64,000 bases of DNA from Patescibacteria group bacterium (lineage in GTDB: Bacteria > Patescibacteriota > Patescibacteriia > UBA1558 > UBA10009). The stretch is taken from assembly GCA_041662565.1 (NCBI GenBank), contig JBAZSE010000003.1, positions 44,260 through 108,259 of the forward strand, given 5' to 3'. The notes beneath the pieces are model-generated. The model made no database searches, was not told where the DNA came from, and saw nothing but the letters and a program-made list of their open reading frames with translations. Positions 2 through 49,551 of the stretch are shown here, one piece after another; positions within the stretch are counted from its first letter, which is position 1, and every line of letters begins with the position of its first letter. The translations under genes and the position numbers were made by a program.

Positions 2-1201
2 AAATTCAAGGATTTAACCGAAGCAGCAATTTACGCCCAATACCCGGAAGCGGAAATTACCGAAGTTAATGATTACGTTAGTTTGATTCCCGAAGATATT
101 CATAAAGTTGAATCAGATTATGATGTTTGGGCTACCGAATTTACTTTGGCTAAACCCAGTGCCTATCCCATAAAAACCTATACGGCATTTGAGCACCAAT
201 TGGCTGAAAGTTTTATCGATCCGATGTCGGCTTTGTTGGAAGTAATGAGTAAAATCGGCCAAGGCGAGCAGCTAGGTCTTCAGCTGGTAATTACGCCGGT
301 TGACGACCATTGGAAACACAAAGGCGAAGCCATTGTTGAAGAATTGATTGGCGCCAAGGGCGCCAGCAAAAAGCATTTGGGAGATAAAATGGTAGATAGG
401 ATTTTAGGTGTTTTGGAAAAATTCAGTGAAGCCATATATAAAATGTGGGGCGATATTAAGACGGAAAAAGAATCACCCAATCCCAGTTTATACCAATTTT
501 TAACAGTCGGTCAAAAAAACGTAGTTGAAGCGATCGAAAACAAATTGGCCAAAATTTGTTTTTCCGCCAGTTTTAGGGTTTATTACCTGGCTCACAAGGA
601 TCATTTTAAAAAAAGCCGGGGTGTTAATACTGTTTTAGGCGCCATTAACCAATTTAATACCAGCAACCTTAACGCCTTTAAAAAATACGGTAAGTTAACC
701 ACTCATCGTGATTATTTTTTTGTGGAAAAACGAGTTAATCGGGTTAAAAAGAAATTATTAAAATACTACAAAACCCGTTCTCGCAAGGGCTCAACAGAAT
801 TTTATCTTTCAACCGAAGAAATCGCCACATTGTATCACTTTCCTAACATTACTGTTAAGGCCCCATTGCTCAAAAAATCCGATGTTAAAACAGCCGAACC
901 GCCAACCAGTTTGCCTATTGAATATTCCGAAACTCAAAACTTTTTTATGGCCAAAACTGCCCAGCCAAATTTAACCATTGCCGATTTGGGACATAAAAAA
1001 GACGACCCTCAAATCTTACCCGAAAAAGAAACCAAACCCGAAGAAAAATTTGTCATTACCGAAAGTTTGCCCGGTTATGATTTTGATAATGATTATTTTG
1101 AGCAGCATTTTGCCAAAAACAGAACAATAAGCAATGCAACGCCAATTAAAAAAGAATTAGACAAAACAGTGGAACCGCCGTCTAATTTACCAATTTCTTA
1201 A
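2..1201 (+). CDS. hypothetical protein, 5'-truncated at window edge (tracked ORF 83..1201 starts at an internal TTG; frame is open back to nt 2)
   Basis: No in-frame stop from nt 2. Hydrophilic and Lys/Glu-rich. C-terminal duplicated motif KT(A/V)EPP(T/S)(S/N)LPI. No family recognised by eye. Stop lies 9 nt before the next gene, suggesting co-transcription. Confidence 0.45.
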   Translation, partial: KFKDLTEAAIYAQYPEAEITEVNDYVSLIPEDIHKVESDYDVWATEFTLAKPSAYPIKTYTAFEHQLAESFIDPMSALLEVMSKIGQGEQLGLQLVITPVDDHWKHKGEAIVEELIGAKGASKKHLGDKMVDRILGVLEKFSEAIYKMWGDIKTEKESPNPSLYQFLTVGQKNVVEAIENKLAKICFSASFRVYYLAHKDHFKKSRGVNTVLGAINQFNTSNLNAFKKYGKLTTHRDYFFVEKRVNRVKKKLLKYYKTRSRKGSTEFYLSTEEIATLYHFPNITVKAPLLKKSDVKTAEPPTSLPIEYSETQNFFMAKTAQPNLTIADLGHKKDDPQILPEKETKPEEKFVITESLPGYDFDNDYFEQHFAKNRTISNATPIKKELDKTVEPPSNLPIS

Positions 1202-1210
1202 TTAAAACAA

Positions 1211-2884
1211 ATGACTACAACCTCATCACAAGTGACAATTTTTGCCAAAACCAATTATCGCCATCAAGAGGTAAAATTTGGCATTAAAACCGATGATCGG
1301 CGCAGACACATGTATTTGATCGGTAAAACCGGCATGGGCAAATCCGTTACTCTGGAAAACATGATTATCCAGGATATCCAGCACGGCCGGGGAGTGGCTG
1401 TTGTTGATCCGCACGGTGAATTGGTGGAAAAAATCATCAAATTTATACCACCCAACAGGGTTAACGATGTGGTTTATATCAATCCGGCAGATTTGAATTA
1501 TCCAGTGGCTTTTAACGTACTGGAAAGCGTTTCCGAAGAACATCGTCACTTGGTTGCTTCCGGTTTGCTTGGGGTTTTTCAAAAATTATGGGCTGAATCA
1601 TGGGGTCCTCGTTTGGAATATGTATTGAACAACGCCATTATGGCTTTATTGGAATATCCTGGCAGTACGCTTTTGGGAGTAATGAGATTATTAATCGATA
1701 AATCATTTAGACAAAAGGTAATTAATAACATTACCGATCCGATGATTAAATCATTTTGGGTCGAAGAATATTCAAAATATCCCGATAAATTTCAATCCGA
1801 AGCAATTGCTCCGATTCAAAACAAAGTCGGCAGGTTTTTGTCATCGCCGATGATTAGAAATATCGTTGGTCAGGTAAAGTCATCGGTTGATTTGCGAAAA
1901 ATAATGGATGAGGAAAAAATCCTGTTACTTAATTTATCCAAAGGCCGGATCGGTGAAGACAATTCTGCACTGTTGGGCGCTATGATTATTACCAAAATCC
2001 AGTTGGCCGCCATGAGCCGGGTAGAAATTCCGGAAAAAGACCGTAAGGATTTTTATCTATACGTTGATGAATTTCAAAATTTTGCCACAGAAAGTTTTGG
2101 CAATATTTTATCCGAGGCTCGCAAATACCGCTTAAATTTAATCATGGCTCATCAATACATGGAGCAATTAAGTGAAACTACCCGTTCGGCCGTATTTGGT
2201 AATGTAGGCACCATTGTTTGCTTTAGGGTAGGAGGCGAGGATGCGGAATTTTTGGCCAAAGAATTTACTCCGCGCTTTGAAGAGCAGGATTTGTTAAATT
2301 TGGGCAAATACAATATTTATTTAAAATTGATGATAGACGGGGTTGCTTCGGAGCCTTTTTCGGCAACAACTTTACCACCGGTGCCGGAAAGCGAAGAAGC
2401 GGATAACATGATGGAAAAAGTTGTTAAGGTTTCACGCGAACGCTACGCCACCAAACGCGAAATTATCGAAGAAAAAATCCTTCGTTGGAGCTCCATGAAT
2501 GATTCCGGAGACGAGCAAGAAAGAAAACAGGCGGTAAATGTAAAAAACCAAATTAAAACTTTTTCCAAAACCTCACAACCAACCAATCAAGCAAAGAACT
2601 CTCCCAAAAAACCTTTGTTTAAAGATACGGGCATTACTCATCCTGCGGTTTGCGATGCCTGCGGTGAAAAAACCGTTTTAAATTTTATACCTGATCCCAA
2701 AAAACCGATCTATTGCAAAACTTGCTTAAAAAACTTAAGACAGGTAAAATCAGAAAACAGTCCAAAATCAGCACTTTCTGAAGAGCTTTTAAGCCAAAAA
2801 CCCTTAACTCTCAACGAAGCCATGGGTAAGGCGCCACAAAGCTTTAAAAATAGCGCCAATAACGTTAATTTAAGCCGGGAATAA
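1211..2884 (+). CDS. type IV secretion coupling-protein-like (TraD/TrwB/VirD4 superfamily) P-loop ATPase, soluble, with C-terminal zinc ribbon
   Basis: Walker A RHMYLIGKTGMGKSV at residues ~33-47. Walker B hhhhDE = YLYVDEFQNF about 250 aa later, a spacing compatible with an inserted all-alpha domain. RKYRLNLIMAHQ motif. No N-terminal TM segment. Ser/Lys-rich tail with C-x2-C-x17-C-x2-C (CDACGEKTV...YCKTC). Confidence 0.6.
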   Translation: MTTTSSQVTIFAKTNYRHQEVKFGIKTDDRRRHMYLIGKTGMGKSVTLENMIIQDIQHGRGVAVVDPHGELVEKIIKFIPPNRVNDVVYINPADLNYPVAFNVLESVSEEHRHLVASGLLGVFQKLWAESWGPRLEYVLNNAIMALLEYPGSTLLGVMRLLIDKSFRQKVINNITDPMIKSFWVEEYSKYPDKFQSEAIAPIQNKVGRFLSSPMIRNIVGQVKSSVDLRKIMDEEKILLLNLSKGRIGEDNSALLGAMIITKIQLAAMSRVEIPEKDRKDFYLYVDEFQNFATESFGNILSEARKYRLNLIMAHQYMEQLSETTRSAVFGNVGTIVCFRVGGEDAEFLAKEFTPRFEEQDLLNLGKYNIYLKLMIDGVASEPFSATTLPPVPESEEADNMMEKVVKVSRERYATKREIIEEKILRWSSMNDSGDEQERKQAVNVKNQIKTFSKTSQPTNQAKNSPKKPLFKDTGITHPAVCDACGEKTVLNFIPDPKKPIYCKTCLKNLRQVKSENSPKSALSEELLSQKPLTLNEAMGKAPQSFKNSANNVNLSRE

Positions 2885-2890
2885 ATCTTA

Positions 2891-4405
2891 ATGTTAAAAT
2901 TCTTTTTGGTTTTAAAATCCAAATTTTTTGCTAATCCAAACAGAGTTTGGGAGATTTTACCAGGCAGTATTACCTGGTTGACTTTTATTTTAGCCATAGT
3001 ATTTTCCATTTGGTTGCCGATTTGGGCAATTTATTTTATTATTGTTTTTGATCTTTTTTGGCTGCTTAAAGTTTTTTATTTGGTCATTAATCAAGTAACC
3101 TCGTGGTTTATTTTTAAAAAACAAGTCAAAATCAATTGGCTGGAAAAATTAAAAGGAGTTACCGCTAAAAATTGGCAGGATTATTATCATGTTATTTTTT
3201 TACCAACGTATAAAGAGCCCTTTGAAGTTATTGAACGAACTTTTATTTCTTTAGCTAAAGCGGTTTATGAACCGCAAAAATTTATTGTAGTTTTGGCAGG
3301 CGAAGAACGTGATCAAGAAAATTTTTTATCCTTTGCCGATAAAATTATCGAAAAATACTCCGGTCTGTTTTTAAAAATTTTGGTTACGGTTCATCCTAAA
3401 GATTTACCAGGCGAAATTCAGGGTAAGGCATCAAATATTAATTATGCCGGACATAAAGTTCAAGAGATAATTGACCAATTAAATATTCCTTACGAAAATG
3501 TTATTGTTTCGTCTTTTGACATTGATACTTGCCCGCACCCACAATATTTCAGCTATTTGGCTTACAAATATTTAACCCATCCCAAACCAACCAGAGTCAG
3601 TTACCAACCCATAGCCATTTACCACAACAATATTTGGCAATCCGATCCTTTAACCAGGGTGGTGGCCAATTCTACCACTTTTTGGCTGATGACCGATTTA
3701 GCCAGATCGGACCGTTTGTTTACTTTTTCTTCGCACTCCATGAGTTTTAGAGCTTTGGTTGATGTTGGCTTTTGGGAAAAAGATATTGTTTCCGAGGATT
3801 CGCGAATATTTTTGCAATGCTTGCTAAAATATGATGGAGATTATCAGGTCGAACCGATGTATATACCTGTTTCCATGAATACCGTTTCCACTGGTAAATT
3901 CTGGAAAGCTATGTCCGATCAATACAAACAAATGCGCCGCTGGGCCTGGGGCGTAGAGCATATCCCATACATGATGAAAAGATTTAAGGATCACCCCAAA
4001 ATGCCTTTTAAACTTAAATTTAAGCACTTTTTTAACCAAATGGAAGGAATGTGGTCTTGGGCCACCGCTCCTATTTTAATAACGGTAATGGGCCGTTTAC
4101 CACTCTTAATGGCTCCAAAAGGTATTCAATCAACCGCCATAGCCCAAATGGCCCCCCTAATTTTGGAAAAAATCATGACATTTGCCCTCGTAGGCCTTGC
4201 TTTAAACGCTATTTTAAGCACAATTTTAATGCCCGAACGGCCCAAAGGAAACAAATGGTACACCAAACTGGTTATGCTTTTAGAATGGGTATTATTCCCA
4301 GTTACCATGATAGTTTTTGGATCAATTCCGGCAACCGAAGCGCAAACCCGCTTAATGCTTGGCGGAAAATACCGCTTGGGTTTTTGGGTAACTGAAAAAA
4401 AATAA
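2891..4405 (+). CDS. membrane-embedded processive family-2 glycosyltransferase (cellulose/chitin/hyaluronan-synthase-like)
   Basis: N-terminal and C-terminal TM helices. D,D motifs (SFDIDT). QxxRW motif (QYKQMRRWAWG) diagnostic of processive GT2 synthases. Confidence 0.7.
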   Translation: MLKFFLVLKSKFFANPNRVWEILPGSITWLTFILAIVFSIWLPIWAIYFIIVFDLFWLLKVFYLVINQVTSWFIFKKQVKINWLEKLKGVTAKNWQDYYHVIFLPTYKEPFEVIERTFISLAKAVYEPQKFIVVLAGEERDQENFLSFADKIIEKYSGLFLKILVTVHPKDLPGEIQGKASNINYAGHKVQEIIDQLNIPYENVIVSSFDIDTCPHPQYFSYLAYKYLTHPKPTRVSYQPIAIYHNNIWQSDPLTRVVANSTTFWLMTDLARSDRLFTFSSHSMSFRALVDVGFWEKDIVSEDSRIFLQCLLKYDGDYQVEPMYIPVSMNTVSTGKFWKAMSDQYKQMRRWAWGVEHIPYMMKRFKDHPKMPFKLKFKHFFNQMEGMWSWATAPILITVMGRLPLLMAPKGIQSTAIAQMAPLILEKIMTFALVGLALNAILSTILMPERPKGNKWYTKLVMLLEWVLFPVTMIVFGSIPATEAQTRLMLGGKYRLGFWVTEKK

Positions 4406-4452
4406 TTTTAATAAAAAATGGCTTGCCAACTCCTGTACGGAATAGGCAAGCC
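4406..4452 (-). terminator. rho-independent terminator for the GC-rich gene
   Basis: Hairpin GGCTTGCC-N17-GGCAAGCC (4420..4452). On the minus strand it is followed by AUUUUUUAUUAAAA. Confidence 0.5.
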
Positions 4453-4474
4453 AAGGTGGACTTATTGCTTTGCT

Positions 4475-5170
4475 CTATCTGAGCTCAAAGCTGACCTCCT
4501 GGATCAAGCAGCCACTGTTTTTGAGCAACCTCTCATCAAGAATGCTCGTCAGTTCTAAGAACAATGGCCTTTGATCATCGTAGTTAGGTAAAGCAGTAGC
4601 CAAGCGTTGGCGATTTTTTTCCGCCCAGAGAGCGAGATAAAATTGAATCACCCCAGATAGAGAGCCGTAGCTCGCTATCTCTTTTTTAAACCCCCTCCAA
4701 AGTAAGTATCTTTCGAGGTCGCCAGACGAGTTCATTTTCAACCGACAGACGATGCGAGCTGATTCATTGACTTGGTTAGAAACTTCACCGAGGTAGAACA
4801 TGAAGGCGTAATCCTGTTCTTGGTAGGATTCAATCGACCGCCAATCTTTCAACCGGCTGTCCCACTTCCAGAGCAGACCTCCCTTTGGCATGACCGCGTT
4901 GACCTGGCCGAAGGAATTGAAGATGATGCTTTCAGAATCAACTGACACTGTCAGGTATTTTCGTGGCGCCATGTAAAGTAGCCACGTGAAAATAAGAAAC
5001 AATACAGTCAGAAGCATAAGTCCTGCGTTTTCGCCCTGCTGTAGCGCCGCCGATTGCTGTGTTTGCGGTAGAGACACTATGTCCCTGATAAAAACCGCGA
5101 AAAAGCAGAGCGGAACAATTAACAAAACCAGCCGAACGTGGTTGCGAAAAAATCCAGAGATGGATTTCAT
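4475..5170 (-). CDS. hypothetical two-TM membrane protein encoded on a GC-rich (~47%) island
   Basis: ORF with two N-terminal hydrophobic helices and a ~160 aa soluble tail. Sampled GC is 42-53% against ~33-38% in the flanks. Codon choice differs (CTG/GCC/CGC-rich). Sits downstream of def-fmt on the same strand with its own terminator. Confidence 0.55.
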   Translation of the reverse strand: MKSISGFFRNHVRLVLLIVPLCFFAVFIRDIVSLPQTQQSAALQQGENAGLMLLTVLFLIFTWLLYMAPRKYLTVSVDSESIIFNSFGQVNAVMPKGGLLWKWDSRLKDWRSIESYQEQDYAFMFYLGEVSNQVNESARIVCRLKMNSSGDLERYLLWRGFKKEIASYGSLSGVIQFYLALWAEKNRQRLATALPNYDDQRPLFLELTSILDERLLKNSGCLIQEVSFELR

Positions 5171-5249
5171 TTGATGATCCTTTCGGAATTTGGATTGTTG
5201 GATTGAAGGTGCTTTACAAAAGCAACTTTACCTTATGCTAAAGATAAAA

Positions 5250-6179
5250 TCAATCTCGTAAATAACCGTTAATAAATTCTTTAGCTGTCATTTCTTTTTT
5301 TCCTTCCGGTTGCAATTTTTCTATCAATAACGCGCCGTGGCCACATTGAATATATAATTTTCCATTATCTACCTGTAGCTGACCAATTAAATTGGATATA
5401 CTTTCAACGGCTTGGGCAGATATTATTTTAGCAGTTTTAAGTTTTAAGTTTTTACTTTTTAGCTCTGTATAGCTTCCTGGCCACTGCGCATAAGCCCTAA
5501 TCTGCCGTTCAATTTGATCTGCACTGTTTTGCCAATCTATTTTGCCGTCTTCCTTATTGATAATTTTACAAAAAGTAGCTTCAGTATTATTTTGAGGTTC
5601 TAACCTAATTTTTCCAGCCAAATAATCCGGTAATGTTTCTACCAGCAATTTTGCTCCCAATCCAGCTAATCTTTCGGATAAACTTTGGTAATTATCATCA
5701 GCTTTAAGTTTTAAGTTTTGAGTTATAAGTTTTGAACCATGATCCATTTTCTCATCCAATTTAATAATGGATACTCCTGTTTCTTTGTCACCATTTAATA
5801 TCGCCGACTGAATGGGGGATGGACCGCGGTACTTTGGCAATAACGATGGATGGATATTTAAAACTCCCAATGGAAATAAATCCAAAATTTCCTGGGGAAT
5901 AATTTTTCCGTAAGCAACCACAATTCCCAGATCAGGTTTTAGTGTTTCAATCTTTAATCTTAAATCTTTTAAATTTTCACAAACTTCTAAACCAAGCATT
6001 TTTGCCTCAACCTTAATTGCTGTTGGCGTTAAAATTTGCTTTCTACCGATTAACTGATCAATTTGAGTTATAACCAAAACAACATTATAGTCATTTTGAA
6101 GTAGGGCCCTTAATGCAGGAACCGCAAACTCGGGAGTACCAAAAAAAAATATCCTTTGCTTTAAATTATTTTTCGTCAT
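5250..6179 (-). CDS. fmt: methionyl-tRNA formyltransferase
   Basis: NIHPSLLPKYRGPSPIQ formyltransferase motif. C-terminal Fmt domain. Overlaps def in the canonical def-fmt arrangement. SD AAGGAG upstream. Confidence 0.9.
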   Translation of the reverse strand: MTKNNLKQRIFFFGTPEFAVPALRALLQNDYNVVLVITQIDQLIGRKQILTPTAIKVEAKMLGLEVCENLKDLRLKIETLKPDLGIVVAYGKIIPQEILDLFPLGVLNIHPSLLPKYRGPSPIQSAILNGDKETGVSIIKLDEKMDHGSKLITQNLKLKADDNYQSLSERLAGLGAKLLVETLPDYLAGKIRLEPQNNTEATFCKIINKEDGKIDWQNSADQIERQIRAYAQWPGSYTELKSKNLKLKTAKIISAQAVESISNLIGQLQVDNGKLYIQCGHGALLIEKLQPEGKKEMTAKEFINGYLRD

Positions 6180-6666
6180 TTTTTGCTCCTTTTATCCATT
6201 CTTTAACTTTATGTTCGCCTTTGGTGTATTTAAAAATCTTATCAATAAACAAAATACCGTTAACATGATCTATCTCGTGCTGCAATACTCTGGCGAGTAA
6301 ACCTTTGGCTCGCAAAAATCTTAAACGGCCATTTTCATCGCGGTAAAACAACCAAACTTTTTCCGGGCGTTTTACCAAGCCGTAAACATTCATAAAAGAT
6401 AAACAACCCTCTTCCATGACGGTTTTATTCAAAGATTTCCAGCAAATAACCGGATTAATAAAGGCCTTAGGGCCGCCATCATGGTTAACAACCAAAACTT
6501 GCCAATCTTTACCCAATTGATTGGCCGCCAATCCCAAACCATCAGCGCTTAACATGGTTTCACCCAATTCTTTAATAAAAGATTGTACCTCGGAAGAGGC
6601 GATATTGGTAATTTTTTTTGATTTTTTCCGCAAAATTTTACTTGGATATTTAACAATTTCCAACAT
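6166..6666 (-). CDS. def: peptide deformylase
   Basis: GLAANQLG, EGCLS and HEIDH motifs. Confidence 0.9.
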   Translation of the reverse strand: MLEIVKYPSKILRKKSKKITNIASSEVQSFIKELGETMLSADGLGLAANQLGKDWQVLVVNHDGGPKAFINPVICWKSLNKTVMEEGCLSFMNVYGLVKRPEKVWLFYRDENGRLRFLRAKGLLARVLQHEIDHVNGILFIDKIFKYTKGEHKVKEWIKGAKNDEK

Positions 6667-6778
6667 AATGTTCTATTAAATTATTGATTATAAATTATAC
6701 CCCAATTTTACAGTTAAATCAAGCTGTTGCCTTTAAGCTTCATCTGCTATAATTCTACTATAATTAAACAAAAAAGTA

Positions 6779-7066
6779 ATGTCCGAATCAGACAATTTTA
6801 CCAAACTAGGGGATTTGCTTAAAAACAAGCAAACCGTTAAAGGCCCGGCCTATCCTTGGCAGGATTTGGCTTTAAAAATTATCAGTGATTTAAATGTTCC
6901 GGCTTTCAAAAAAAGCGCTGTTTTTAAGGTTTGCAGGGATTTGCCCCAGCAACATATTGTCCAAGCCCTAATTGACACCAAGGAACTCTGCCAAACCGGC
7001 CAAAAATGGAAATATTTTTTTAAGATCACTTCTGGTAAGCATGATGAAATAAAAGACCCTTCTTAA
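6779..7066 (+). CDS. hypothetical small protein (95 aa)
   Basis: Isolated plus-strand ORF between minus-strand genes. Upstream TTGCCT-N15-TATAAT-like promoter. Downstream hairpin plus T-run. Confidence 0.45.
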   Translation: MSESDNFTKLGDLLKNKQTVKGPAYPWQDLALKIISDLNVPAFKKSAVFKVCRDLPQQHIVQALIDTKELCQTGQKWKYFFKITSGKHDEIKDPS

Positions 7067-7081
7067 ACGAAGGGCTTTTTG
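7054..7081 (+). terminator. rho-independent terminator
   Basis: CCCTTC-ttaaac-GAAGGG followed by CTTTTT. The stop codon lies in the loop. Confidence 0.5.
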
Positions 7082-7098
7082 TTACAACATTATTACTT

Positions 7099-7911
7099 TT
7101 AGATCTCTAAATTTGCCACCAAATAACCAACACCAACGGAATCATCATAACTTAAAATATTGGTTTTAAAATTAATTTCTTCCAAAGCTCCTAGCAAAAC
7201 CAAAATTGATTGATAACCGCATTGGCCGGAAGATTCCAGTAATTCAGAGCTTAATTCTTTAAATGATTCAATGTTTTTTTCTTTAAGGCAATTAACAACC
7301 TTTTGATCAAAAATCTTTCCTTCGGGCGAATATCCGTCGGGTGAACTCTTTTTTAAACGGTGCGAAAGATCAGCCGAGGCAATAATGGCGATTCTTTTGG
7401 AACTGGTTTCGGCTATTTTACGGATTGCTCTGCCCAACGACAAATGATTATCTCTGGATAGCAAAGAAAAACTCATTGGTATAACCAAGAGGTTTTTTAA
7501 ATGAGAAGTTAAATACCACAATGGTATGCCCGAACCATAATCGATTTTTTCTTCACTGTTTAAAACCAAAGGCATACTGCTTTCTAACGATTCCTTTAAT
7601 TGATAACCTAAAGCCAAATCATTTTTATATTCGGCCTTGGTATCCAAATCGCCGAATTCCGAAAAATCGGTTTTTAAAACCGGCGAATGATTAATCACAA
7701 AAGCATCTTTCATCATCGGCCCATGGGGGGAAATAATAATTAAAGTATCGGGTTTGGAAGCGTACAATTCCTGTTCCAACAGCAAAAAGGCCTTTTTGGT
7801 TTTGGGACATGACTTAACGGTGCCGGAAATATTTTGAGATAATTTATCTTTACTTAAAGCGGGGATTAAAACAGGTGGATGAGGAGTAATGGCGGCAAAA
7901 ACTAAAGGCAT
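7099..7911 (-). CDS. class III extradiol dioxygenase subunit B-like protein (LigB/YgiD/MEMO1-like fold)
   Basis: ITPHPPVL, IIISPHGP, DYGSGIPLWYL and IIASADLSHRL segments parallel the His-containing motifs of YgiD/LigB-type proteins. Could alternatively be an AmmeMemoRadiSam-B-type protein. Confidence 0.55.
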   Translation of the reverse strand: MPLVFAAITPHPPVLIPALSKDKLSQNISGTVKSCPKTKKAFLLLEQELYASKPDTLIIISPHGPMMKDAFVINHSPVLKTDFSEFGDLDTKAEYKNDLALGYQLKESLESSMPLVLNSEEKIDYGSGIPLWYLTSHLKNLLVIPMSFSLLSRDNHLSLGRAIRKIAETSSKRIAIIASADLSHRLKKSSPDGYSPEGKIFDQKVVNCLKEKNIESFKELSSELLESSGQCGYQSILVLLGALEEINFKTNILSYDDSVGVGYLVANLEI

Positions 7912-49359: not shown

Positions 49360-49433
49360 GCAGGTATAGTTTAACGGTAGAATATATCCTTCCCAAGGAT
49401 AGGGTACGGGTTCAATTCCCGTTACCTGCTCCA
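49360..49433 (+). tRNA. tRNA-Gly (anticodon CCC), CCA encoded
   Basis: Cloverleaf GCAGGTA/TACCTGC acceptor, anticodon loop CTTCCCAAG, T-arm GGTTCAATTCC. Confidence 0.85.
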
Positions 49434-49475
49434 TTCGACTCGTCCCGACATTCGTCGGGACTCGCTTTAATTCCT

Positions 49476-49551
49476 GCCGATGTAGCTCAATTGGTAGAGC
49501 AACGGTATCGTAAACCGTAGGTTGTCGGTTCAATTCCGACCATCGGCTCCA
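49476..49551 (+). tRNA. tRNA-Thr (anticodon CGT), CCA encoded
   Basis: Acceptor GCCGATG/CATCGGC, D-arm TAGCTCAATTGGTAGAGCA, anticodon stem ACGGT/ACCGT with loop ATCGTAA. Confidence 0.85.

What the first reader, a model, noticed from the sequence alone, without database searches (positions are those of the whole stretch)
4406..5249. Single-gene GC-rich island (~47% versus ~35%) appended to the def-fmt operon
The ORF 4475..5170 and its terminator have sampled GC of 42-53%, against 33-40% in the neighbouring fmt, def and GT2 genes. Codon usage is visibly different (CTG, GCC, CGC, CGG). The product is a 231-aa protein with two N-terminal TM helices and a ~160-aa soluble domain of unrecognised family. 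The gene has its own rho-independent terminator. This compositional discontinuity suggests recent horizontal acquisition of a membrane protein, possibly a toxin/immunity, defence or host-interaction factor, into a conserved housekeeping operon.
Basis: seen in the sequence. Interest (0 to 1): 0.55.

Follow-up and report, generated by a model that had tools for sequence, protein, structure and literature searches.

The report
Foreign SPFH-like membrane gene after fmt
A single gene with foreign base composition sits between two conserved housekeeping-region genes of a tiny-genome (Patescibacteria) bacterium; it encodes a very rare small membrane protein whose predicted fold resembles stomatin-type membrane scaffolds, which makes it an ordinary acquired accessory gene with one curious trait, a distant relative at the same spot after fmt in another lineage.

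The parts
4475..5170 (-). Protein-coding gene X, 231 aa (identical to NCBI MFA6304703.1, 'hypothetical protein', Patescibacteria group bacterium). Compositionally foreign.
   Evidence: ORF listed. GC/GC3 outlier. Codon use z = -11.6 and tetranucleotide z = 5.2. Homologues P0002, P0004 and P0005 share its architecture. NCBI name.
5179..5184 (-). Shine-Dalgarno-like AAAGGA, 8 nt upstream of the ATG at 5170.
   Evidence: Read from the sequence. The 231-aa start is supported by NCBI's call and by the alignment of the first TM helix with P0004. JGI's 200-aa call from GTG (P0001) would drop that helix.
5075..5131 (-). Hydrophobic segment 1 (residues 14-32).
   Evidence: Kyte-Doolittle 19-residue peak of 2.56. 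Helix 4-32 in the model.
4970..5026 (-). Hydrophobic segment 2 (residues 49-67).
   Evidence: Kyte-Doolittle peak of 2.24. Helix 42-73 in the model.
4478..4948 (-). Soluble alpha/beta domain (residues ~75-231): several beta strands, four helices and a terminal strand. Predicted SPFH/Band-7-like fold.
4859..4870 (-). Invariant W-x-W-D motif of the family (residues 101-104), within LWKWDSRLK.
   Evidence: Invariant columns W101, W103 and D104 in alignment A1. Codons read.
4406..4453 (-). Rho-independent terminator closing def-fmt-X: stem 4419..4453, then a U-run.
   Evidence: Fold gives dG -24 kcal/mol, z -3.56. Inverted repeat I3.
5171..5249 (-). 79-nt fmt-X spacer with no terminator-like or promoter-like site, so X is probably read through from the def-fmt promoter.
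   Evidence: Scan finds no minus-strand terminator or promoter between 5170 and 5250. The fold is weak, z -1.67, with no U-run.
5250..6666 (-). Context: fmt (5250..6179) and def (6166..6666). Host-typical composition up to the last fmt codon.
   Evidence: ORFs. Pfam families on the identical locus L084. Codon-use windows of fmt have z between -1.2 and +0.3.
3950..4405 (+). Context: 3' end of the convergent GT2 gene, with raised GC3 and borderline-atypical codon use. Possibly part of the same recombination tract.
   Evidence: GC3 0.41-0.46 and codon-use z of -2.3 to -3.3 for codons 352-501; only 1-4 of 300 null windows are as low. Relative amino-acid identity switches from L001-like to L003-like.

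Best explanation
X is a real, recently acquired accessory gene in a Komeilibacteria-like Patescibacteria genome.

Shown:
- It was inserted into the short spacer between the convergent fmt and GT2 genes.
- It carries none of the usual marks of a mobile element.

Inferred, origin and expression:
- It most likely arrived by recombination with DNA from another bacterium of moderate GC (~43-49%) and weak codon bias, possibly another Patescibacterium with a gene of this family next to fmt.
- It is transcribed by read-through from the def-fmt promoter and ends at its own terminator.

Product:
- It is a 231-aa membrane protein with a two-helix N-terminal anchor and a ~155-aa alpha/beta domain (shown at the level of sequence and model).
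- The predicted fold is that of SPFH/Band-7 proteins (stomatin, QmcA, HflK/C, flotillin; FliL is the minimal analogue).

Inferred mechanism, from fold only:
- It sits on the cytoplasmic membrane and self-associates or binds another membrane protein.
- It would then act as a small scaffold or modulator, as stomatin does for channels, HflK/C for FtsH and FliL for stators.
- It is not an enzyme, toxin or defence effector.
- It lacks the long C-terminal coiled coil that builds SPFH cages, so any assembly would be FliL-like rather than cage-like.
For: Foreign origin:
- GC, GC3, codon and tetranucleotide outlier.
- Its codon use is close to uniform (-1.24). It fits Patescibacteria loci of 43-49% GC (z -0.9 to -2.6) far better than the host (z -12.4) or the sister species L001 and L003 (z -3.4 and -9.5).
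- It is absent at the fmt 3' end in L001, L003, L002, L088, L089/90, L091/92 and L093 and in 80 GTDB fmt loci.
- The nearest fmt in public data is only 68% identical.

Real gene:
- Exhaustive phmmer over 1.84 billion representatives finds P0002, P0004 and P0005 (E 4.5e-7 to 4e-4). All are 210-223 aa with the same two hydrophobic segments, and 17 columns are invariant, including WxWD, SY and N...R.

Not a chimera:
- Locus L085 is 100% identical and L084 99.88% identical, with no differences in the gene.

Fold:
- The order of elements (strands, four helices, one strand) matches SPFH domains as I know them.
- SPFH proteins are known to be sequence-divergent, patchily distributed and dispensable (PMC13086221).

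Operon reading.
Against:
- Topology is unsettled. The positive-inside rule puts the domain in the cytoplasm for X and P0004, but outside for P0002 and P0005.
- No donor is identified, and there are no repeats or mobility genes at the borders.
- A homologue at the same position after fmt in L083 allows an older history at this locus.
- Function is inferred from fold alone.
Confidence: 0.6

Rival explanations
1. Old resident, not an import. An ancestor of this Komeilibacteria-like clade already carried the gene downstream of fmt. X and P0004 are fast-evolving positional orthologues, and the gene was lost repeatedly in other lineages. The odd composition would have another cause.
For: - P0004 lies 73 nt downstream of fmt in L083, whose fmt C-terminus is 50-57% identical to clade members.
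- Two of only four family members share this adjacency. That is very unlikely by chance in genomes of roughly 800 genes (that genome size is my estimate).
Against: - Codon use z = -11.6 cannot survive the divergence implied by about 50-60% fmt identity, while every other gene in the window is ameliorated.
- X is the most divergent family member. P0004 is closer to P0005 (35%), which is not fmt-linked, than to X (20%).
- All sampled relatives lack the gene at this site, and 80 further fmt loci have no member within 10 kb.
- P0004 is itself GC3-richer than its fmt.
Confidence: 0.15
2. One reading: X is a toxin/immunity, anti-phage defence or host-interaction factor carried on a small defence or mobile island.
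For: - It is a single foreign accessory gene with a very patchy distribution.
- P0005 lies at the edge of a variable block that contains a giant surface protein and a Y1 transposase.
Against: - No PADLOC model matches at E<=1. The only PHROG hit has E 0.44 and the only NCBIfam hit has E 0.25.
- No relatives in IMG/VR, GenBank phages or PLSDB plasmids.
- No partner gene, no nuclease, protease or pore-forming domain, and no mobility genes or repeats.
Confidence: 0.1
3. X is a membrane-tethered T-fold (pterin/purine-binding) protein that is functionally tied to folate-dependent Met-tRNA formylation. That would explain why it sits after fmt twice.
For: - Two members follow fmt and one lies next to pth.
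Against: - SPFH proteins rank first in both models and in Foldseek, with longer alignments.
- The order of elements has only one strand after the helices, whereas a T-fold has two (T-fold topology is from my own knowledge).
- None of the catalytic residues I know for PTPS or DHNA (my own knowledge of these enzymes) appear among the invariant columns W, W, D, S, Y, N, R, G.
- P0002 is monocistronic next to nrdR.
Confidence: 0.05
4. Artefact: a chimeric assembly, or a spurious ORF in non-coding DNA.
For: The codon use is nearly uniform, which would also be expected of non-coding sequence.
Against: - Identical gene and flanks in separately assembled contigs from NCBI (an 809-kb and a 21-kb contig), JGI, Logan and ENA.
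- Conserved full-length homologues.
- Shine-Dalgarno sequence, terminator, and a confident model for the homologue.
Confidence: 0.02

Closest known systems
SPFH / Band-7 proteins (bacterial QmcA 8z5g, HflK/HflC 7vhp, archaeal stomatin PH1511 3bk6/8gn9, flotillin, prohibitin, erlin)
   Same: - N-terminal membrane anchor followed directly by an alpha/beta domain with the order strands, helices, strand.
- As a class they are patchily distributed, divergent and non-essential (PMC13086221).
   Different: - No detectable sequence similarity.
- Two hydrophobic segments instead of one.
- Only 231 aa, with no long C-terminal coiled coil and therefore no obvious means of building a 20-40-mer cage.
- No NfeD partner gene nearby.
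FliL (single TM helix plus stomatin-like periplasmic domain; 6ahq, 7sgn)
   Different: - FliL belongs to flagellar operons and surrounds stator units. No flagellar genes neighbour any family member.
- No sequence similarity.
Classical genomic islets / ORFan genes acquired by horizontal transfer
   Same: Atypical GC, codon use and oligonucleotide content. Absent from relatives, single gene, no known function.
   Different: - No tRNA, integrase, transposase, or direct or inverted repeats at the borders.
- It is inserted exactly in a 14-116-nt spacer between conserved convergent genes.
- A distant homologue occupies the same site in another lineage.

Membership tests
SPFH / Band 7 (Pfam PF01145 and relatives) | Significant sequence match to a Band_7/SPFH profile | tested here: not met
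   No Pfam family at E<=1 for X or P0002, and no Band_7 among the weak hits of P0004 and P0005. No NCBIfam match. A profile of the family against all PDB sequences gives no SPFH hit at E<=10.
SPFH / Band 7 (Pfam PF01145 and relatives) | SPFH alpha/beta fold | tested here: met
SPFH / Band 7 (Pfam PF01145 and relatives) | N-terminal membrane anchor immediately before the domain | tested here: met
   Two hydrophobic segments, residues 14-32 and 49-67, are present in all four members. The sidedness of the domain is ambiguous.
SPFH / Band 7 (Pfam PF01145 and relatives) | Long C-terminal coiled-coil region that drives ring or cage oligomerisation | tested here: not met
   The protein ends at residue 231 with a beta strand. 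After the sheet there are only four short helices (152-214) that pack on the domain.
SPFH / Band 7 (Pfam PF01145 and relatives) | Forms large homo-oligomers on the membrane | not testable with these tools
   No multimer prediction or experiment is available.
SPFH-NfeD operons | Adjacent NfeD-family gene | tested here: not met
   The neighbours are fmt and GT2 (window), fmt (L083), pth and an LTD/fn3 protein (L081), and nrdR (L086).
FliL | Encoded in a flagellar gene cluster, with a single TM helix | tested here: not met
   No flagellar genes in any of the four contexts. There are two hydrophobic segments.
Horizontally acquired genomic islet | Composition and codon use that deviate from the host genome | tested here: met
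   GC3 0.56 against 0.354±0.047. Codon use z = -11.6 and tetranucleotide z = 5.2. All 100-codon windows of X lie below all 300 null windows.
Horizontally acquired genomic islet | Absent at the orthologous site in related genomes | tested here: met
   L001, L003, L002, L088, L089/90, L091/92 and L093 have fmt followed by a convergent gene 14-116 nt away. However, the nearest relatives are only 59-68% identical in fmt.
Horizontally acquired genomic islet | Mobility signature (integrase or transposase, tRNA target, flanking repeats) | tested here: not met
   The only tRNAs are at 49360-49551. No convincing direct or inverted repeats at the borders. No Rfam hit in 3500-7500.
Known anti-phage defence or toxin-immunity systems | Match to a defence or toxin model, or a defence-island context | tested here: not met
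   PADLOC gives 0 families at E<=1. The only NCBIfam hit is a T6SS effector model at E 0.25, 11 bits against a cut-off of 90. The flanking genes are conserved housekeeping or cell-envelope genes.

The most novel reading that the evidence does not exclude
X and its three relatives are a new family of membrane-tethered factors that act on the start-of-translation pathway (fmt, def, pth). An example would be anchoring or modulating Met-tRNA formylation or nascent-chain deformylation at the membrane. The family would spread among Patescibacteria as an 'fmt-linked cassette', by homologous recombination through the highly conserved 3' end of fmt.
Probability: 0.07. Interest if true: 0.6.

Novelty: new variant of a known kind. 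Interest (0 to 1): 0.3.

Why it matters
The finding gives a clean, well-bounded example of recent gene gain in a streamlined, episymbiotic-type (CPR) genome. The gain occurred without any mobile-element machinery, at a spacer of a few dozen bases between conserved genes. It also defines a very rare protein family (four members among about 15 billion predicted proteins). The family would extend the SPFH-like scaffold fold to a minimal form with two TM helices and no coiled coil. The repeated placement behind fmt is a small, testable puzzle. Nothing here bears on a long-standing open question.

Tried and rejected
- Sequence annotation: Pfam, NCBIfam, PHROGs and PADLOC all gave nothing useful.
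- Rfam and tRNA scans of the region: nothing found, so there is no hidden RNA gene.
- Word-indexed protein search with X and with the family alignment returned only X itself and two known members.
- Family scans of the JGI metagenome contigs and of IMG/VR added no new member.
- tblastn against GenBank phages and PLSDB plasmids: no match.
- A family profile against PDB sequences gave only chance hits.
- hhalign against a stomatin core recalled from memory: no similarity.
- Border repeats or target-site duplication: none convincing.
- afdb50 fold library: not available.
- P0003 (710 aa, 8 matched stretches) was rejected as a spurious repetitive ORF.
- Donor search by codon-use fit gives a GC class only, not a donor.
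- The idea that the GC rise reflects amino-acid composition was rejected, because the excess is at third positions.
- The idea that the family is intrinsically GC-rich was rejected, because P0005 and P0002 match their own genomes.

Full report
**What is there.** The interval 4406..5249 is exactly the space between the stop of a GT2-family glycosyltransferase gene (2891..4405, +) and the stop of fmt (5250..6179, -). The def gene (6166..6666, -) lies upstream of fmt. The interval holds one ORF, 4475..5170(-), of 231 aa. An AAAGGA Shine-Dalgarno sequence lies 8 nt before its ATG. A strong hairpin with a U-run terminator follows it at 4406..4453 (dG -24 kcal/mol, z -3.6). No terminator-like or promoter-like site lies in the 79-nt fmt-ORF spacer. 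The gene is therefore most simply the last cistron of a def-fmt-X transcript. This is an inference.

**Is the compositional anomaly real?** Yes.
- The interval has 45.0% GC, and none of 1231 other 844-nt windows reaches that value (mean 36.7%, sd 2.7).
- The ORF has GC 46.8% and GC3 56.0%. The 58 window ORFs of at least 100 aa average 37.2±3.1% and 35.4±4.7%, and the next-highest GC3 is 47%.
- Under the window's own synonymous codon frequencies, the ORF scores -1.46 per codon against -0.976±0.041 (z = -11.6).
- Its tetranucleotide distance from the window is the largest of all 700-nt windows (z = 5.2).
- Every 100-codon window of the ORF lies below all 300 null windows.
- The shift is more than extra GC. 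The gene prefers GCG, CTC, GTC, ACG and CGG, and avoids the host's favoured GCC, ACC and CCC.
- The boundary is sharp at fmt, which is host-typical to its last codon. It is gradual on the other side. GT2 GC3 rises from about 0.25 to about 0.44 at codon ~200, and its last ~150 codons have borderline-atypical codon use (z -2.3 to -3.3).

**Is it an artefact?** No. The identical 231-aa protein is on record from NCBI (MFA6304703.1 and MFA6460582.1, 'hypothetical protein', Patescibacteria group bacterium; contigs of 809 kb and 21 kb), JGI, Logan and ENA. Locus L085 (Logan SRR6484324) is 100% identical to the window over 13.1 kb. L084 (GCA_041665425.1) is 99.88% identical, and all 14 differences lie far from the gene.

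**Is it a gene?** Yes. A word-indexed search found only the gene itself. An exhaustive phmmer scan of 1.84 billion cluster representatives found three true relatives: P0002 (219 aa, E 4.5e-7), P0004 (223 aa, 2.5e-4) and P0005 (210 aa, 4e-4). A fourth hit, P0003, is a spurious repetitive ORF. The four real proteins align end to end. They share two N-terminal hydrophobic segments and 17 invariant columns, including L-W-x-W-D-x-R/Q-L/I-K/S, S-Y, N-x3-R and a Gly. Searching again with the alignment, and scanning JGI metagenome contigs, IMG/VR, GenBank phages and PLSDB plasmids, added nothing. The family is extremely rare.

**Who is the host, and is the gene present in relatives?**
- The fmt query retrieved Candidatus Komeilibacteria MAGs as the nearest GTDB species (63, 62 and 59% identity). 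In all public protein data the nearest fmt is only 68% identical.
- L001 and L003 have def-fmt followed directly by the convergent GT2 gene, with gaps of 14 and 116 nt. L003 also keeps the VirD4-like ATPase and the DUF8128-family gene (Pfam family as recorded for the identical window locus L084) beyond GT2, as in the window.
- L002, L088, L089/90, L091/92 and L093 (fmt 62-66% identical) have fmt followed 78-116 nt later by a different convergent gene.
- A family HMM finds no member in any of these loci, nor within 10 kb of fmt in the 80 GTDB loci.
- The alignment of the junctions shows conserved fmt and GT2 3' ends, with X as a clean insertion between them.
- There are no flanking repeats, tRNA genes or mobility genes.

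**Where could it have come from?**
- X's codon use is nearly uniform (-1.24). It fits Patescibacteria loci of 43-49% GC (z -0.9 to -2.6 against their native genes).
- It fits much worse to the host (z -12.4) or to L001 and L003 (z -3.4 and -9.5).
- P0002 (GC3 0.54 in a contig with GC3 0.51-0.60) and P0005 (GC3 0.40 in a locus of 41.5% GC whose genes mostly have GC3 0.30-0.45) match their own genomes, so the family is not intrinsically GC-rich.
- All nearest relatives of the host have 42-47% GC, which makes the host the low-GC outlier of its clade.
- No donor can be named.

**The odd point.** P0004 lies 73 nt downstream of fmt on a 1.2-kb ENA contig (L083), with its own TTGACA-17-TAAGAT promoter-like site and a terminator. 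The fmt C-terminus of L083 is 50-57% identical to clade members. L083 is therefore another lineage of the same broad clade, not a close relative of the host.
- Two of the four family members thus follow fmt. A third, P0005, lies beside pth (separated by a 63-aa gene on the opposite strand), at the edge of a variable block. The fourth, P0002, is monocistronic next to nrdR.
- X is the most divergent member (20-25% identity to the others). P0004 is closer to P0005 (35%) than to X. P0004 also has higher GC3 than its fmt (0.50 against 0.355, though from only 75 codons).
- I read this as repeated locus-specific gain, perhaps through the DNA-level conservation of the fmt 3' end, rather than as vertical inheritance. 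The alternative of an old resident gene with many losses keeps about 15%.

**What does the protein look like?**
- Hydrophobic segments lie at residues 14-32 and 49-67. The positive-inside rule puts the C-terminal domain in the cytoplasm for X and P0004: K/R-rich N-terminus and acidic or neutral loop. It puts the domain outside for P0002 and P0005, which have K/R-rich loops. Sidedness is therefore unresolved.
- The AlphaFold model of X from the 4-sequence alignment is mediocre (pLDDT 64.7, pTM 0.47). The model of P0005 is decent (pLDDT 80.8, pTM 0.60). Both show two long helices, a multi-stranded sheet, four helices and a final strand.
- Foldseek lists only SPFH or FliL chains in its top 29, with weak statistics (best E 0.04, probability up to 0.9).
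- No sequence method links the family to SPFH.
- I conclude that the fold is SPFH-like. Homology is unproven. The long coiled coil needed for SPFH cages is absent.

**Mechanism, inferred from the fold.** X would be a small membrane-anchored scaffold or modulator that self-associates or clamps a membrane partner, closer to FliL or a stomatin core than to HflK/C cages. SPFH proteins in bacteria are typically divergent, patchy and dispensable (PMC13086221), which fits an accessory gene. A T-fold, folate-linked reading is attractive because of fmt, but it is second-best structurally.

**Verdict.** The horizontal-acquisition interpretation is supported, and the functional guesses are not. The gene is an ordinary kind of thing (a foreign ORFan islet) encoding an undescribed, very rare SPFH-like membrane protein, with a curious recurrent position behind fmt. 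Interest 0.3.

Noticed in passing
window 2891..4405 (+), especially 3490..4405: The GT2 gene is compositionally two-part. GC3 is 0.22-0.30 in codons 1-200 and 0.41-0.46 afterwards. The last ~150 codons have borderline-atypical codon use (z -2.3 to -3.3). Amino-acid identity switches from L001-like in the 5' part to L003-like in the 3' part. This may be a recombination tract that came in together with gene X.
   Followed up: partly
L083 ~76..103 (ENA ERZ27248895 k141_364747): The fmt reading frame of this contig is broken at a 14-nt tandem duplication (GCGGAACCCGAAAC x2), so the gene call is only 75 aa. This is either a collapsed repeat in a short-read assembly or a real frameshift, directly upstream of family member P0004.
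   Followed up: no
window 6779..7066 (+): A 95-aa ORF divergent from def is conserved at the same position in L001 (93 aa), L003 (106 aa), L088 and L089 (89 aa). It has a conserved 'PAYPWQDLALKII..PPFKKSAVFKVCRDLP' core and no Pfam match, so it is an uncharacterised clade-specific small protein.
   Followed up: no
whole window compared with L001, L003, L002, L088-L093: The host genome (36.8% GC, mean GC3 0.35) is clearly lower in GC than all of its nearest sampled relatives (42-47% GC). This lineage has therefore undergone a GC decline, which makes foreign genes stand out.
   Followed up: partly
window 83..2884 (+): A gene of the DUF8128 family (Pfam family as recorded for the identical locus L084) lies next to a VirD4/TrwB-like coupling ATPase with a C-terminal treble-clef zinc ribbon. 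The same pair is syntenic in L003. It is a conserved chromosomal module, not a plasmid remnant.
   Followed up: no
L081 9077..16735 (SDBU01000977.1): Family member P0005 lies at the boundary between a housekeeping block (RNR, ftsZ, ftsA, ybeY, HIT, hisS, lepB, pth) and a variable block with a 1439-aa LTD/fn3/Lcl_C surface protein and a Y1 (IS200-like) transposase.
   Followed up: no
L001 and L003 fmt, about residues 270-300: The fmt proteins of the sister species carry an insertion of about 11 residues ('..NCASL..DNQ..') in the C-terminal domain that the window's fmt lacks.
   Followed up: no
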